From NCBI GenBank assembly GCA_036785375.1, contig JAWMAR010000055.1, positions 7,812,001-7,876,000 on the forward strand: a stretch of DNA of 64,000 nucleotides, read 5' to 3'. Origin of the DNA: Leucoraja ocellata (lineage: Eukaryota). Below, one piece after another: positions 1 through 6,000 of this stretch. Positions within the stretch are counted from its first letter, which is position 1; each line of letters starts with the position of its first letter. The position numbers are program-made.

Positions 1-3000
1 CATGGGTGATCTGGAGCCATCTAACGGCCAGAGTGGATGCAGTGGAAGATTTCTGTCCCTGAAGGACACTTGCAAACCATGTGGGGCTTTTACAACAATC
101 TAGTAGTTTCATTATCAATATCACAGAAACAAGTTTAAAATTGCAGATTTATTAAATTACTCAAATTTAGTTTCCCCCAACTACTCTGGATCAACGTTCC
201 TGAAATGTGGGGGCTAGTCCACTTACTTTCCTATTACACTATTGTGCTCCATGTTCTGCGTTCTTTTAAAACTGGTTAATGAAGCAGAATTTAAATTTAA
301 CAGAGATGCCATATGTGTGAGGAATCGTAAGAAAATTCCTTGACCTTCTGTTATCGTCGAATATCTCACTTTTCATTATATGCACTTGAATTATTGTCTG
401 ACAAATACAAAGCCATCTTCGGGATAGCATTGAACAGCCCAGGGTAATGCATGTAGATTGATTTTACTTCGGAGTCACGTGAGTGACTACGTGAAGAACC
501 CACCCAGCGCGCAGGCGCGGCATTACGTCAGCAGTGCAACAGCGGCAGCAGCTGGAGCCAGGCTCTCCAGCTGCAGCATAAAGACGAGACCTCAGGTAAG
601 TGCCTTTTTTGTTACAGAGTCGCGCTAGAGAGAATAATGGCCTCTCGCAAGCGACCAGCCAGGAGGACTGCCTGCCCTACTCCACCCGAGGACGGGTCCA
701 TAGCGGGACGGCAGCCTCTCGCAGCGGAGGAGCTTTTTCAACGCTCCCGCTCACCCGACACCGAGCCGCCCCCAGTGCTGCAGATCTCAACGCCCCGCAC
801 AGGGAGGAAGGCGACACAGAAAACCGACCGGCCGGTGTCCTCCGATGATTCGGAGGAACGGGAACACTCTCCCCCACCGAAAAGGGGAGACGCTCGGATA
901 AGCTGCATGAGGCAGCTCCTCGAGCGTATGATTAATGAGGAGATGCGGCATCTCCCAGGAGGACGGGCTTTGGCCTCCTCCTCTCCACACCCTTCTGTAC
1001 CCTCTATATTCGAGGGCAGTAAGGGAGGCCAGGACTGGGCTGGCCTATCCCAAGGGCAGGCGGAGGATATCGTCAGCATGCCGGGCGTGCCGGAAGAAGA
1101 GCTACTGGGTGTAGTGGGCCGATATGCGGCACCACCAACAACTGGGATGGTGTTGCCACCCAGAATGGCGGCAACTATAAACAGGCTGTCCAACAACCCG
1201 CTGCAGGACAAGGCTGTCCAGCAGGCCCTTGACAACTACATCGCGCCCGAAAATTGCGAGGCGCTGAGGGTCAAGACGGTAAATGGGCAGATCTGGAACC
1301 AGCTGGGGCAGCACATAAGGGCTCAGGAGGTCAAAATGCAGCGAGTCCTGAAGCTCCACTCAGCAGCCGTCACCGCCTTTGCTCGGTCCGTTGGGGATGA
1401 AGACCTGACCATACCCCAGCAGGATGCCCTCGCACTGATGTGCAGCACCACGTATGAGCTAAACAACCTACGGCGGGACAACATCAGGCCTGCCCTCAAC
1501 CCAACATATGCCGGCCTCTGTAAAGCTCCAGCGCCCGAACGACAGGCGCTGCTATTTGGTGCGGATCTGGCCAAAAGGCTCAAGGAGTTGGAAGAGGCGG
1601 CAAAACCAGTAGGCCTCATGAGGGCAGGGCCAGGACCGAGCAGGGCGAAGACACCCAGTTGGCCGCACGCCTCGGCAGCCACCAGCAGGTACCGAGCTGG
1701 TGAAAGCCTGGTGACCGCCTCCCACTACCCCCAGTGCTCTTTTTTAGAGCGGGGCCCAGGGCGGAGCCGTGGGAAGATGCGCCGCCCCACCGCAGCACCA
1801 ACACGGACAACCTTGGGCCAGACCCACCGGAAACGACCCCACAAGTGAACATGGAGGTAGGTGGGTCTGGTTCCTGTCAACATACACAGACAAAGGGTGT
1901 AGTATTAACAGGGGGACGTTTGAGGTTCTTCAAGCATGTTTGGTGCTCCCTTACTAACAATCAGTTTATACTCAACAGTATTAGTGGATACAAGATTGAA
2001 TTCAAACCAGGCGTAGAACCGCCAGTTCAGCACATGCCCCAAAGGGTGTTCCTTCCCTCGGCAGTTGAGAAGGTAGAAGGACAAGCTGAACTTGATCGGC
2101 TCGTGGCTAAAGGCATCATAGAAATGACCACACACGAGCCGCAAGAATTTGTATCAAATATTTTTCTCAAAACCAAAAAAGATGGTGGATGTCGCATTAT
2201 TATTGATCTGACATCACTCAATCAGTCTGTTGAGTATCAACATTTCAAAATGGAGACATTTGTCACTGCCAGACAACTGATCTCCAAGGGATACTACATG
2301 GCAAGCATAGATATCAAAGATGCTTACTATTTGGTACCCATTCATAAAGATTACTTTAAATATCTGAAATTTATCTGGAGGGGCCAGCTATGGCAGTACC
2401 GAGCTTTGCCCAATGGTTTAACGACAGCTCCCAGACTATTTACGAAAATTCTTAAAGTGGCCATGAAGAAATTGAGAGAACTAAAACATTTAGTAGTGGC
2501 CTATCTGGACGATGTTCTCATATTAGGAAGAACACGGGAACAAGCTGTCGCAGGAGTGTTAGCCACTAAACAACTCCTTGAAACTTTGGGTTTTATCCTC
2601 CACCCAGATAAATCAATATTGGAGCCTACTACTAACATGGATTACTTAGGCTTCACTATTGACACGATTCACATGACTGTCACTCTGCCCAGAAACAAAA
2701 CAGTTTCACTCATTGAAGCTTGTAGCCATTTAATTGCCACACCGCAACCTAGAATACGGCATGTAGCCAGAGTTATTGGCTCTATAGTAGCAGCATTTCC
2801 GGCTGCCCAACATGGGCCCTTGCATTATCAAAATCTACAAAGAGCAAGGACTCATGCATTACGCCTTCATAGGGGGCATTATGATCGCAAAATGGATTTA
2901 CCCGCTGAAGCCAAATCAGAACTTCAGTGGTGGGTTGACAATATTTGGCACAGTCACAGTCCTATCACCGTAACCAATCCTAACATAACCATTGCAACGG

Positions 3001-6000
3001 ATGCCAGTGCTTTAGGCTGGGGAGCTACTAACTCCAAAGACAGCACAGGTGGCAGATGGACTAACTCAGAGGCATCGCTACTACAATCACTGGGCATTAA
3101 CTTTTTGGAAATGCTCGCCGCCTTTTATGGGCTAAAAGCATATGCATCTGGTATGCGACACGTGCATGTTAGAATTATGATCGACAACACTACGGCAGTA
3201 TCTTATATCCAGCACATGGGTGGCATTAAATCAGTATCATGCGACAAATTAACTGCTATAATCTGGCAATGGTGTGTCGAGAGACATATTTGGCTATCAG
3301 CTGCCTATTTACCAGGCAAGCTAAATTTAGTGGCGGACACCAGGTCACGAAAATTCAACGACAACATCGAATGGATGTTGGACCCAAAATCATTTGCTAA
3401 AATTATCAAGCAATATGGTACGCCAGATATAGATTTGTTTGCGTCTAGGTTAAATCACCAACTACCCATGTATGTGGCTTGGGAACCAGACCCAGAGGCA
3501 GCAGCGGTAGATGCCTTCACGCTGGACTGGGGAAATTTCTTTTTCTATGCTTTCCCTCCCTTCTGCCTCATCAGTCGGGTACTCCAGAAAATTCAGGCAG
3601 ACTCAGCCTCTGGCATTCTGGTCGTGCCCGACTGGCCTACCCAACCATGGTTCCCAATGTTCCACGACATGGTGGTAGAGACACCAATGGTCCTTCAACA
3701 CCACCCCCAATTATTGACTCACCCGGTAACTGGCATTAGCCATCCATGCCACCAAAAATTGAAACTCCTGGTTTCCAGATTTTGAACAGGCCTTACCGGG
3801 GATTGGGGTTATCAGACAGAACAATCACCACCATGTCGGCATCCCTGCGAGTTTCCACCAAGAAACAGTACCTGACCTTCATCAGGAAATGGGAACAGTA
3901 CTGTCTGGACGCAGGGACATCCTACACGACGACTTCGATCTCGGATGTGCTGGAGTTCCTGGCCCACCTGCACCATGATCTCAAGATGAGCTACAGTGCC
4001 ATCAATACGGCTCGGAGCGCACTGTCCGCATACCTCATGCCGATAGAACAGCATAGTGTGGGATCCCACCCTCTAGTCATCAGACTCCTTAAGGGGATCT
4101 TTAATACCAAACCCCCTACACCTAGATACACTCACATGTGGGATGTGAGTGTAGTTCTCACACACCTTCGAGGTTGGCCTCCGGTGGGATCCCTGAGCCT
4201 GGAACAGGCCACTTACAAAACCCTCATGCTCATGGCGCTTGTCTCAGCTCAAAGGGTTCAGTCGCTCCATCAGCTTAATCTGAACTACATGGTGACCACC
4301 CCAGATACCATTACTTTCACCATGCCGGGGTTGGTAAAACAAAGTAGACCAGGTACATCAAACTCCCCGTTGATCTTCCGGGCTTACCCTCCAGAACCTA
4401 GGCTGTGTGTGGTGACCCACCTTCATCATTATCTAGACACAACCCAAACGCTAAGAGGGAGAGAGAAAGCCTTATGGGTTAGCCACAGAAAGCCTTTTGG
4501 ACGGGTAACCAGCCAAACATTATCCAGATGGTTGAAACAGGTCCTCAGCATGGCAGGGATTAACACAAATGTTTTTAAATCCCATTCAACCAGGGCAGCG
4601 TCCACCTCAGCGGCGGATAGGATGCAGGTTCCCCTCGACCACATCCTCAGAGCAGCGGGATGGTCAAGGGAATCGACATTCCAACGATTTTACAACAAAC
4701 CGCTGATGGAACAGGACGTCTTTGCGGATACCGTTTTAAAAACCGCAAAGTTATGATTTAAAGCCCATGGGAGCTATTTTGTTTTTTGTTATAGTTAATA
4801 AATATTTCTTTTATAACTAAACAAACTTGTTGGTCTCTAGCTACCACTTCCTCCCTCGATGATCTTTCGGCAGTGAGTGATATAACTGTTACACGGTTTG
4901 AAATCACAGACCTTTGAAGTCTTCACGTAGTCACTCACGTGACTCCGAAGTAAAATAGTAAGATTAAACGAGTACTTACCAGTACGAAGTTTGATCTGTA
5001 TTTTATGAGGAGTTACGATGAGGGATTACGTGCCCTCCGCTCCCACCCTCATTATATAGATCAAATTCGGACTAATGTCTCGTTGGTCTTCACTATCTTT
5101 ACTTCAACTAGTGTCTATCTGTGATTCCACACCGCTGCTTGGAAGTATGCCGCGCCTGCGCGCTGGGTGGGTTCTTCACGTAATCCCTCATCGTAACTCC
5201 TCATAAAATACAGATCAAACTTCGTACTGGTAAGTACTCGTTTAATCTTACTATTTTACAGGACATATGTGTCCAAGCATGTTTTTAAATGAAATGTTTT
5301 TGTGTGCTGGAACGGTGTTTAAACTATACATATCTGTTCTTGAAGACTAAAATAAGACAGCTTCCAGATGTATGAACTGAGTGATCCATTTGTTTAGGTT
5401 TTGTTCCACAGCTGATGCCTAGATTAGTGCTGGCTGGACAAAACTATGGGAGATTTGTCTGGTTTCCACGATGCCATGTTTATATTTCATTTGGATTCCT
5501 CCTTCAAAGCTGACCTCCCTGTGACCTGCTGATAGACTATGTCCACCAGTATACTCACTCCATCTTGGCCACAGCTGATCTCCGATTGAAAAACTGAGAT
5601 TGTGCCTTTTTTTCCCCATTCTGATTTCATTGTCCTGCTTTGGGATTAACTTTGTTCAGATAAATTTGGACCTTGTGCTGAGATGTTGATAGTTGAAAGG
5701 AACTGGTCAATGACATCTTGTTACATTATTGAGAATGTGTTTTGACAACAATTTGGCCTGCTTTATATGTGTAGATTAAGATGTTTCCTTGTTATGTGTT
5801 TATGATTAAATTAGATTAAAAAGCAGTTTAATGCCATTGTTGATGGAATACAGGGCAAAGTGGTTGATGCTATCGAGCTTGGTGATTTAAAAATCCAAAT
5901 AAATGTCTTCCAAAAAGGAAAATAAAATAAATGGCTAGTGTACAATTTTTAAAATAGTATTGCTAAAAGACTTTTGGCTGAAGACTCGGGATTCCTGCCC

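What the first reader, a model, noticed from the sequence alone, without database searches (positions are those of the whole stretch)
461..5259. Intact, probably very recent DIRS1-type retrotransposon inside the presumed PTCH1 intron 2
Seen: three uninterrupted ORFs with YLDD, RNase H acidic residues and the YR R..HxxR..Y set; the ITR pair (36 bp) and both ICR arms (36 and 83 bp) are mismatch-free; CpG is retained in gag and the termini. Known: DIRS1-type elements replicate via ICR-guided circularisation and YR integration. Inference: a recently inserted, possibly active and polymorphic copy in a dosage-sensitive developmental gene. The ITR is unusually short.
Basis: partly seen in the sequence, partly recalled or inferred. 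Interest (0 to 1): 0.7.

Follow-up and report, generated by a model that had tools for sequence, protein, structure and literature searches.

The report
Intact young DIRS1-like retrotransposon in PTCH1
A complete, undecayed copy of a tyrosine-recombinase (DIRS1-type) retrotransposon sits in a large intron of the Patched-1 gene of what is probably a cartilaginous fish; it is a good specimen of a known kind of mobile element.

Summary
Window 461-5259 (+) is a 4,799-bp DIRS1-like retrotransposon with three open frames. They are a gag-like ORF1, a pol ORF2 (RT, RNase H and a PCIF1-like, probably inactive methyltransferase fold) and a tyrosine recombinase ORF3. All catalytic residues are present.

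The termini fit the published DIRS1-like scheme: 27-nt divergent ITR, 36-nt perfect ITR, 50-nt right extension. The internal complementary region has arms of 37 and 83 nt that pair with the two ends without a mismatch. The ITR (63 nt) is short, but it matches the mollusc-type elements already published (66-68 nt).

The host gene is PTCH1. 21 exon matches lie on the same strand. The first (190 nt, residues 133-194) starts 11.8 kb downstream of the element. "Intron 2" is therefore consistent but not shown, because exon 2 is outside the window.

Recency is supported only within limits. There are no mismatches in 289 repeat bases, and near-identical intact proteins exist elsewhere in public data (1357/1371 residues identical). 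My rate assumptions give an upper age bound of roughly 2-21 My.

Activity, polymorphism and copy number could not be tested.

Two small oddities: the two ICR arms overlap by 7 nt rather than the 3 nt described for the family, and a slippery-type heptamer lies in the gag/pol overlap.

Verdict: a new member of a known kind.

The parts
461..5259 (+). Whole DIRS1-like element, 4,799 bp. The right boundary is 5255 or 5259, depending on whether the last 4 bases are element or target.
   Evidence: Outer limits of the inverted repeats and of the pairing with the ICR. The next base outward on each side no longer pairs with the ICR.
461..523 (+). Left terminus: divergent ITR 461-487 (27 nt) and conserved ITR 488-523 (36 nt). 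Bases 461-497 pair with the left ICR arm.
637..1848 (+). ORF1, gag-like, 403 aa. The N-terminal (about 1-150) and C-terminal (about 335-403) parts are predicted disordered. The all-helical core is at about residues 165-330.
   Evidence: No Pfam family. 1381 relatives at E<=0.001. Model pLDDT is above 90 in the core. No fold relative found.
1740..1746 (+). Heptamer of the X XXY YYZ type, in the gag reading frame, inside the gag/pol overlap (the pol frame is open from 1704 and is -1 to gag).
   Evidence: It is the only copy of this heptamer in the element. The downstream fold is not better than shuffles (z = 0.13).
1851..3785 (+). ORF2, pol, 644 aa from the first ATG, which lies 2 nt after the gag stop. 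RT about 2175-2660, RNase H about 2976-3365, methyltransferase-like domain about 3366-3782.
   Evidence: RVT_1 E 2.5e-19. RT chains in the PDB, best E 2.3e-13. Catalytic columns. Dam in 23 of 40 and PCIF1_WW in 26 of 40 aligned sequences, 39 of them relatives. Model pLDDT 92.8. PCIF1/CAPAM is the best fold match, E 3.1e-4, TMq 0.61-0.68.
3746..4756 (+). ORF3, tyrosine recombinase, 336 aa, -1 to pol with a 40-nt overlap. SAM-like N-domain about 3839-4033, catalytic domain about 4205-4699.
   Evidence: Phage_integrase 29.8 bits (cut-off 27.1) and Phage_int_SAM_4 E 3.8e-5. Catalytic set conserved.
4920..5032 (+). Internal complementary region: left arm 4920-4956 (37 nt) and right arm 4950-5032 (83 nt), overlapping by 7 nt at 4950-4956.
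   Evidence: The 83-bp hairpin with the right end gives dG -123 kcal/mol, z = -20.9.
5147..5259 (+). Right terminus: conserved ITR 5147-5182, divergent ITR 5183-5209, right extension 5210-5259 (50 nt). Bases 5177-5259 pair with the right ICR arm.
17102..17291 (+). First PTCH1 exon in the window: 190 nt, AG at 17100-17101, GTAAGT from 17292. It encodes residues 133-194 of the 1447-residue PTCH1 chains.
17102..57838 (+). PTCH1 from that exon to the stop: 21 exon matches covering residues 121-1434 of a named sawshark PTCH1.

Best explanation
Window 461-5259 is a full-length, undecayed copy of a DIRS1-like (tyrosine-recombinase) retrotransposon. It is inserted in the sense orientation in the large intron upstream of the exon-3 homologue of PTCH1, in a genome that is probably a cartilaginous fish.

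Shown here:
- It encodes a gag-like protein; a pol with RT, RNase H and a PCIF1-like methyltransferase fold that lacks the usual polar residue of its active-site motif; and a tyrosine recombinase with a complete catalytic set.
- Its ends are short ITRs.
- An internal complementary region reads, on the opposite strand, as the right end joined to the left end through a shared 7-nt stretch.

Inferred from the Cappello model and from the Dictyostelium experiments (PMC7192593):
- An RNA lacking the outermost ends is reverse-transcribed.
- The ICR serves as the template or splint that restores and joins the two ends.
- The recombinase crosses the junction with a short identical genomic sequence. This leaves that sequence at both ends and makes no target-site duplication.

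The copy is young. It belongs to a family with other near-identical intact copies or alleles in public data. Whether it still moves is not known.
For: - ORFs and domains.
- Catalytic residues conserved.
- MT-like domain. It agrees with PMC4738411 (passages seen), which derives the DIRS1 MTase domain from PCIF1 and calls it probably inactive.
- ITR/ICR layout. It matches the scheme and the size ranges of PMC3266345 (passages and Table 3 seen).
- No split direct repeats. No integrase or protease family at E<=0.01.
- No decay: 0 mismatches in 289 repeat bases and 0 breaks in 3 ORFs. CpG o/e is 0.64 against 0.36.
- Siblings: gag 397/403, pol 641/644, recombinase 319/324 identical, all full length or nearly so. 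The pol sibling was seen on 4 contigs, and the recombinase cluster has 7 members.
- At the 14 differing sites, the window residue is the commoner one in the family at 9, the sibling's at 3, and 2 are ties.
- Host gene and strand.
Against: - The window's own copy scores below the Pfam cut-offs for RNase H (E 0.16), Dam (E 0.16) and PCIF1_WW (E 0.034). Those domain calls rest on relatives, conserved columns and the model.
- The recombinase has no PDB sequence match on its own. As a profile it reaches only E 0.12 to Cre.
- The gag-like ORF has no recognisable family or fold.
- The exact proteins are not in the protein collection, and there is no second copy in the window.
- The siblings could be alleles of this same insertion rather than other copies.
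- No named DIRS1 reference protein could be reached, so no tree places the element.
- An AATAAA at 4797 lies upstream of the ICR. If it were the main poly(A) signal, it would give an RNA without the ICR.
- Age bounds depend on substitution rates that I assumed.
Confidence: 0.9

Rival explanations
1. An old insertion whose genes are kept intact by selection for a host function (a domesticated element), not a recent arrival.
For: Intact ORFs alone cannot separate recency from selection. The element lies inside a conserved developmental gene.
Against: The non-coding ends and the ICR are also perfect, with 289 bases and no mismatch. Host selection on proteins would not explain that. CpG is not depleted as it is in the surrounding intron. 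Near-identical proteins occur on several other contigs.
Confidence: 0.03
2. A structurally complete but dead copy: the ORFs are open, but missense changes, silencing or the lack of a working promoter keep it immobile.
For: There are 14 residue differences from the closest proteins. No expression data could be consulted. The MT-like domain probably lacks catalysis (PMC4738411).
Against: At 9 of the 14 differing sites the window has the residue commoner in the family. Only 3 of the 14 lie in columns where one residue holds at least half of the relatives. All checked catalytic residues are present. The MT-like motif is the same in 40 of 40 aligned sequences, so it is a family trait and not damage to this copy.
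Confidence: 0.35
3. Another kind of tyrosine-recombinase element (Ngaro-like, PAT-like, or a Crypton DNA transposon next to an unrelated RT).
For: All of these carry a related recombinase. RT trees do not cleanly separate DIRS-like from PAT-like elements (PMC6681497, passages seen).
Against: There are no split direct repeats; the only direct repeat found is 21 nt at 76%. ITRs plus a two-armed ICR are the defining DIRS-like layout. An MT-like domain is present. RT, RNase H and recombinase lie in one compact unit bounded by the repeats.
Confidence: 0.02
4. An assembly artefact: a real element placed wrongly in this intron.
For: Repeats are prone to misplacement. I could not see reads or other assemblies.
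Against: Both junctions are clean and the flanks are unique within the window. There is no N in the window.
Confidence: 0.03

Closest known systems
Mollusc DIRS1-like elements LgDIRS1, LgDIRS3 (Lottia gigantea) and AcaDIRS1 (Aplysia californica), as tabulated in PMC3266345
   Same: Size is 4.7-5.2 kb against 4.8 kb here. They start with ATT. They have no long ORF overlap and no left extension. The conserved ITR is short (31-36 nt; 36 here) and about as long as the divergent part (30-36 nt; 27 here). The right extension is 48-49 nt (50 here). The ICR arms are 39-45 and 86-88 nt (37 and 83 here).
   Different: The host is a vertebrate. Total ITR is 63 nt against 66-68 nt. The two ICR arms overlap by 7 nt, where the paper describes 3 nt. 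I could not compare sequences, because no named reference was reachable.
Vertebrate DIRS1-like elements (anole AcDIRS, stickleback GaDIRS, Tetraodon TnDIRS1a, Xenopus XtDIRS; PMC3266345, PMC9210276)
   Same: Same gene set (gag, RT/RNase H/MT, recombinase) and the same ITR/ICR principle. Intact, putatively active copies and very recent amplification are described in Xenopus tropicalis.
   Different: Those have conserved ITRs of 102-148 nt (about 120 nt in Xenopus), right extensions of 26-34 nt and termini CTT/TTT/GTT. Most have long ORF overlaps, and they are 5.3-6.2 kb long.
Dictyostelium DIRS-1 (PMC7192593; Cappello 1985, not read)
   Same: ITRs plus an ICR. This is the only member with experiments: the ICR is essential, the cDNA is single-stranded and mostly linear, and the proteins act in trans.
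   Different: In DIRS-1 the ITRs are about 300 nt, the gene order and overlaps differ, and the junction is TTA/TAA.
PCIF1/CAPAM, cap-specific adenosine N6-methyltransferase (PDB 6iry, 6irx, 6irw)
   Same: Best fold match of the pol C-terminal domain (E 3.1e-4, TMq up to 0.68). The Pfam PCIF1_WW model hits 26 of 40 aligned sequences. A published view derives the DIRS1 domain from PCIF1 (PMC4738411).
   Different: Identity is 16-19%. The residue before the P-P-F motif is F in 40 of 40 aligned sequences. As I recall, active adenine N6 enzymes have D, N or S there. The domain is probably not catalytic.
[quoted passage not shown]
   Same: RT/RNase H plus a tyrosine recombinase.
   Different: They end in split direct repeats (A1 ... 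B1 A2 B2), which are absent here.
Cre and other tyrosine recombinases
   Same: R, K, H-x-x-R, W and Y catalytic set. The weak profile match covers the block of Cre at residues 285-324.
   Different: The match is not significant (E 0.12). Membership of the superfamily rests on Pfam.

Membership tests
DIRS1-like (DIRS-like superfamily, order DIRS) | Reverse transcriptase and RNase H of the LTR-retroelement type | tested here: met
   RVT_1 E 2.5e-19. PDB hits to retroviral, foamy-virus and Ty3 RT, best E 2.3e-13. RT D154 and Y-x-D-D and RNase H D-E-D-D columns are kept in 37-40 of 40 aligned sequences. The window's own RNase H Pfam score is only E 0.16; RNase H-type families match 1-8 of 40 aligned sequences each.
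DIRS1-like | Tyrosine recombinase in place of a DDE integrase; no aspartic protease | tested here: met
   Phage_integrase scores 29.8 bits against a cut-off of 27.1, with SAM-like N-domains. The catalytic R, K, H-x-x-R, W, Y are kept in 29-30 of 30. No integrase or protease family at E<=0.01 in any of the 3 ORFs.
DIRS1-like | Inverted terminal repeats | tested here: met
   36-nt perfect core, 63-64 nt at 89%.
DIRS1-like | Internal complementary region whose two arms are complementary to the start of the left end and the end of the right end, and overlap at a 'circular junction' | tested here: met
   37/37 and 83/83 complementary. The arms are adjacent and overlap by 7 nt. The published description is a 3-nt overlap (PMC3266345).
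DIRS1-like | Methyltransferase-like domain after RNase H | tested here: met
   Dam in 23 of 40 and PCIF1_WW in 26 of 40 aligned sequences. The window's own scores are below cut-off. The model is confident (pLDDT 92.8), with adenine N6 methyltransferases as best folds.
DIRS1-like | gag-like first ORF | tested here: inconclusive
   Position and size fit, and there are 1381 relatives. There is no Pfam family, no PDB sequence match and no fold match. No zinc knuckle is seen in the translation.
DIRS1-like | No target-site duplication; the same short sequence, complementary to the junction, at both ends | tested here: met
   The same 7 nt lie at 461-467 and 5253-5259 and are complementary to 4950-4956. 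The flanks beyond them share nothing.
DIRS1-like | RT/RNase H groups with named DIRS1-like references in a tree | not testable with these tools
   119 of the 120 listed pol relatives carry no informative name; 1 is labelled 'hypothetical protein'. No named DIRS reference protein could be fetched.
Ngaro-like / PAT-like | Split direct repeats (A1 ... B1 A2 B2) | tested here: not met
   Only one direct-repeat family in 1-6500: 21 nt at 76%, one copy of it outside the element.
Ty3/Gypsy-type LTR retrotransposon | Direct long terminal repeats, integrase and protease | tested here: not met
   No direct terminal repeats. No rve or RVP family.
PTCH1 (host gene) | Exons that match Patched-1 in order on one strand | tested here: met
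   Sterol-sensing/Patched exons. The listed PDB matches of two exons tested are all Patched-1. 21 ordered exon matches to a named sawshark PTCH1, 85.3% identity, the best of 10 named references. No test against PTCH2 was possible.
PTCH1 intron 2 | Exon 2 upstream and exon 3 downstream of the element | tested here: inconclusive
   Downstream exon: 190 nt, residues 133-194. As I recall, this is exon 3 of the human gene. 21 matches plus 2 missing exons would give the 23 coding exons that I recall. No exon for residues 1-120 is in the window.

The most novel reading that the evidence does not exclude
In this family the junction is a 7-nt core rather than the 3-nt 'circular junction' described for DIRS1-like elements. 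On this reading the recombinase crosses over within 7 nt of identity between the joined ends and the target, much as phage integrases use a 7-bp overlap region, and this would give the family a longer and more selective target. The same lineage has the terminal layout so far tabulated only for molluscs. Its nearest named relatives, after skate, are echinoderm and scallop proteins, so it may be a marine lineage distinct from the DIRS1-like elements of bony vertebrates.
Probability: 0.4. Interest if true: 0.45.

Novelty: new member of a known kind. Interest (0 to 1): 0.3.

Why it matters
Intact DIRS1-like copies are the raw material for understanding a retrotransposition route that has been tested by experiment only in Dictyostelium. 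This copy has every part in place, a very compact terminal structure and a clear junction. That makes it a clean specimen for comparing ends, junction length and target choice across copies.

For the host, a 4.8-kb sense-oriented element with poly(A)-like and splice-donor-like signals, inside a PTCH1 intron, is a candidate structural variant. It is worth checking in population and transcript data. Nothing here shows an effect on the gene. Full-length DIRS insertions inside genes are already known to segregate in the green anole (PMC7561263).

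Tried and rejected
1. Second copy or fragments in the window: none (blastn and tblastn).
2. Exact look-up of the three proteins: none in the collection.
3. Listing the clusters of the three near-identical proteins, to count variants: the query could not be made. The number of distinct copies stays open.
4. Recombinase against PDB sequences: 0 hits alone; as a profile, only E 0.12 to Cre.
5. gag:
   - no Pfam family;
   - no PDB sequence match;
   - Atlas gives only 'hypothetical protein' clusters;
   - whole-model fold searches give nothing with TM above 0.16. 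The model is 57% below pLDDT 70, which weakens these searches.
6. MT-like domain alone against PDB sequences: nothing informative.
7. A frameshift-stimulating structure after the heptamer: a stem starts 7 nt downstream, but the fold is no better than shuffles (z = 0.13, 103 of 200 shuffles as good).
8. Rfam on the whole window: 0 matches. tRNA scan: 0.
9. Ngaro/PAT, LTR-element and Crypton readings were rejected on repeat structure and gene content.
10. Literature:
   - no paper in the library combines 'tyrosine recombinase', 'retrotransposon', 'frameshifting' and 'slippery' in a relevant way (1 unrelated paper);
   - the searches 'DIRS' + 'shark' + 'tyrosine recombinase', 'DIRS' + 'Chondrichthyes' + 'transposable elements' and 'DIRS' + 'elasmobranch' gave only genome-wide repeat tallies, with no description of a cartilaginous-fish DIRS element.
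11. The prokaryote-only genome collection and the phage, plasmid and E. coli collections were not searched. They cannot hold a vertebrate element.

Full report
WHAT IS THERE. On the + strand, 461-5259 holds three uninterrupted ORFs:
- 637-1848 (403 aa);
- 1734-3785 (683 aa from a GTG; 644 aa from the first ATG at 1851);
- 3746-4756 (336 aa).
Each ORF is in the -1 frame relative to the one before. The window has no N. No second copy or fragment of the element lies in the window. The region is richer in G+C and CpG than its surroundings: CpG o/e is 0.64 against 0.36 for the rest of the window, and reaches 0.92 and 1.10 in the non-coding ends.

PROTEINS: ORF2 (POL). Its domains were checked as follows.
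- RT: ORF2 matches Pfam RVT_1 (E 2.5e-19) and reverse transcriptases in the PDB, including Ty3 (best E 2.3e-13).
- Catalytic residues: in an alignment with 39 relatives, the RT aspartates and Y-x-D-D and the four RNase H acidic residues are kept in 37-40 of 40.
- RNase H: the window's own Pfam score is weak (E 0.16).
- MT-like domain by sequence: the C-terminal 150 residues are the best-conserved part of pol. On their own they score below cut-off for Dam (E 0.16) and PCIF1_WW (E 0.034). Of the 40 aligned sequences, 23 match Dam and 26 match PCIF1_WW.
- MT-like domain by fold: a confident model (pLDDT 92.8) finds PCIF1/CAPAM as its best fold match (E 3.1e-4, TMq 0.61-0.68), followed by KsgA/Dim1 adenosine dimethyltransferases.
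- Active-site motif: the residue before the invariant P-P-F is F in 40 of 40. As I recall, active enzymes have D, N or S there.
This agrees with PMC4738411 (passages seen), which derives the DIRS1 domain from PCIF1 and considers it inactive.

PROTEINS: ORF3 AND ORF1.
- ORF3 passes the Pfam cut-off for Phage_integrase and has a SAM-like N-domain. R170, K198, H280, R283, W306 and Y316 are kept in 29-30 of 30. PDB sequence searches add nothing significant.
- ORF1 has no family but 1381 relatives.
- The ORF1 model has a confident all-helical core at about residues 165-330 between disordered ends.
- No fold relative was found for ORF1.
- No integrase or protease family was found in any ORF.

ENDS. 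I use the scheme of PMC3266345 (passages and Table 3 seen; additional files not seen).
- Left terminus: 27-nt divergent ITR (461-487) plus 36-nt conserved ITR (488-523).
- Right terminus: conserved ITR (5147-5182), divergent ITR (5183-5209) and a 50-nt right extension (5210-5259).
- ICR: a left arm of 37 nt (4920-4956) and a right arm of 83 nt (4950-5032).
- The ICR arms and the ITR core (36 nt) pair without a mismatch.
- The right end and its arm form an 83-bp hairpin on single-stranded DNA (dG -123 kcal/mol, z = -20.9).
- A 14-nt block with 12 invariant positions is shared by both ends and both arms. The paper describes the same for other elements.

The paper gives ITRs of 66-316 nt, conserved parts of 31-304 nt, divergent parts of 9-36 nt and right extensions of 9-75 nt. 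The 63-nt ITR here is therefore marginally below the published minimum. The whole layout is that of the mollusc elements LgDIRS1, LgDIRS3 and AcaDIRS1 (30-36 / 31-36 / 48-49 nt; ICR 39-45 and 86-88 nt; ATT ends; 4.7-5.2 kb). It is not that of the tabulated vertebrate elements (conserved ITR 102-148 nt).

JUNCTION. The two ICR arms overlap by 7 nt (4950-4956). The complement of that stretch lies at both ends (461-467 and 5253-5259). The next base outward on either side no longer pairs. The literature describes a 3-nt junction, most often complementary to ATT, and this element also starts with ATT.
- If the junction were 3 nt here too, the 4 further matching bases at the right end would be target sequence that matches by chance. 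By base composition the probability of that is about 0.005.
- I therefore think a longer junction is a property of this family.
- One copy cannot show this, and the flanks share nothing else.

AGE. Any substitution in the 289 bases of the ends and the ICR would show as a mismatch, and there is none. Assumptions (mine, not measured here): 0.5-2.5e-9 substitutions per site per year, and the 22 CpGs mutating either at the same rate or tenfold faster. Under these the 95% upper bound is 1.8-21 My. Open ORFs over about 4.1 kb point the same way.

The closest proteins in public data are all from unnamed records:
- a gag identical at 397 of 403 residues;
- a pol identical at 641 of 644, seen on 4 contigs;
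- a recombinase identical at 319 of 324, in a cluster of 7.
The next relatives are at 60%, 69% and 47% for pol, recombinase and gag. At the 14 differing sites the window has the family's commoner residue at 9, the sibling at 3, and 2 are ties. This copy therefore shows no excess of private changes. These proteins may come from other copies or from alleles of this insertion. I could not tell which, because the cluster listing could not be made.

HOST AND CONTEXT. I do not take the window for human, for three reasons:
- mammals lack DIRS1-like elements (PMC3266345);
- the nearest named recombinase is from little skate (69%);
- a named sawshark PTCH1 is the closest of 10 named references (85.3% against 70-78%).

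The gene model was searched exon by exon. The joined step was left out.
- Pfam found sterol-sensing/Patched exons on the + strand.
- Two exons tested against PDB sequences returned Patched-1 in every listed row.
- tblastn with the sawshark protein gave 21 ordered matches for residues 121-1434, from 17101 to 57838.
- The first exon is 17102-17291: 190 nt, with AG and GTAAGT at its borders. It encodes residues 133-194 of the 1447-residue chains.
- No exon for residues 1-120 is in the window.

The element lies 11.8 kb upstream of that exon, on the same strand. From recall, this exon is exon 3 of the human gene, which makes 'intron 2' the likely address. The window cannot prove it. Inside the element, on the gene's strand, there are an AATAAA at 4797, two ATTAAA and two donor-like heptamers. 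Whether they affect PTCH1 transcripts is unknown.

HOW IT MOST LIKELY WORKS. Shown here: the coding capacity, the complete catalytic sets, and an ICR that is the exact complement of the right end joined to the left end. Taken from established work:
- the Cappello model, as summarised in PMC7192593 (abstract, discussion, section 29 and introduction passages read; Cappello 1985, Poulter and Goodwin 2005 and Poulter and Butler 2015 not read);
- the Dictyostelium experiments, which found that the ICR is essential downstream of first-strand synthesis, that the cDNA is single-stranded and mostly linear, and that the proteins act in trans.
The steps inferred for this element from these sources are set out in the Best explanation section.

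EXPRESSION OF POL. This is a lead, not a result. The pol frame is open from 1704. A heptamer of the X XXY YYZ type lies at 1740-1746 in the gag frame, and it is the only copy of that heptamer in the element. This would allow a -1 shift into pol. I estimate about a 5-7% chance of such a site occurring in this overlap by accident. The downstream stem is not better than shuffles. Alternatively, pol starts at its own ATG, 2 nt after the gag stop.

WHAT STAYED UNCHECKED.
- Copy number and identity spectrum in the source genome.
- Presence or absence in other individuals and species.
- Expression.
- Junction reads.
- A tree with named DIRS references.
The remaining DNA collections hold only prokaryotes, phages, plasmids and E. 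coli, so I did not search them. Supplementary files of PMC3266345 and PMC9210276, which may list junction lengths and copy structures, were not seen.

VERDICT. This is an intact, young DIRS1-like retrotransposon in a PTCH1 intron of a probable cartilaginous fish, and a new member of a known kind. Batoid genomes are reported to carry 2.5-3.7% Gypsy/DIRS1 repeats (bioRxiv 10.64898/2026.10.27.761883, one passage). Intact copies and very recent amplification are described in Xenopus (PMC9210276, passages). Polymorphic full-length DIRS insertions inside genes are described in the anole (PMC7561263, passages). The points of modest interest are the 7-nt junction, the mollusc-type ends in a vertebrate, and the heptamer in the gag/pol overlap.

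Noticed in passing
window 9280-9729 (-): Stop-to-stop piece with a strong match to Pfam ALKBH8_N (E 5.2e-13). From recall, this model often hits the tail of LINE (CR1/L2-type) ORF2 proteins, so this is probably a LINE fragment in the intron.
   Followed up: partly
window 14157-14468 (+): A 104-aa open piece with two conflicting weak likenesses. Pfam gives Geminivirus Rep catalytic domain at 23.7 bits, just under the cut-off of 24. PDB sequences give the Hsc70/Hsp70 substrate-binding region at E 2.2e-6, and a Rep protein only at E 0.079. The Rep label is doubtful; the piece may be a fragment of an Hsp70 pseudogene. Unresolved.
   Followed up: partly
window 13979-14073, 28650-28745, 29276-29349, 42142-42301, 53495-53641: A short interspersed repeat family (74-156 nt aligned, 79-89% identity, both orientations), SINE-like. 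No tRNA-like gene was found in the window by ARAGORN.
   Followed up: no
window 46338-46510 and 63538-63723: Two related repeats of about 175-185 nt, each self-complementary and palindromic (80-86%), MITE-like.
   Followed up: no
window 16417-16520, 42613-42700, 54349-54408: Three short tandem arrays with units of 38, 40 and 30 nt and 2-2.7 copies. The first is very C-rich and lies in a stretch with strong negative GC skew, just upstream of the first PTCH1 exon.
   Followed up: no
window 594-618 and 5229-5262: Splice-signal look-alikes on the gene's strand. There is a donor-like heptamer at 594, followed 12 nt later by a pyrimidine run ending in AG. There is a donor-like GGTAAGT at 5229 inside the right extension. 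The element's last bases plus the first two flank bases read like an acceptor. This may be chance. It could matter for PTCH1 splicing.
   Followed up: no
window 461-5259, relatives: Among the 120 best recombinase relatives, the only informatively named ones are from little skate (2), a brittle star (2), a sea urchin (1) and a scallop (1). No named bony-fish or amphibian protein appears, although those genomes are rich in DIRS elements. Most hits are unnamed, so this is only a hint of a separate marine lineage.
   Followed up: partly
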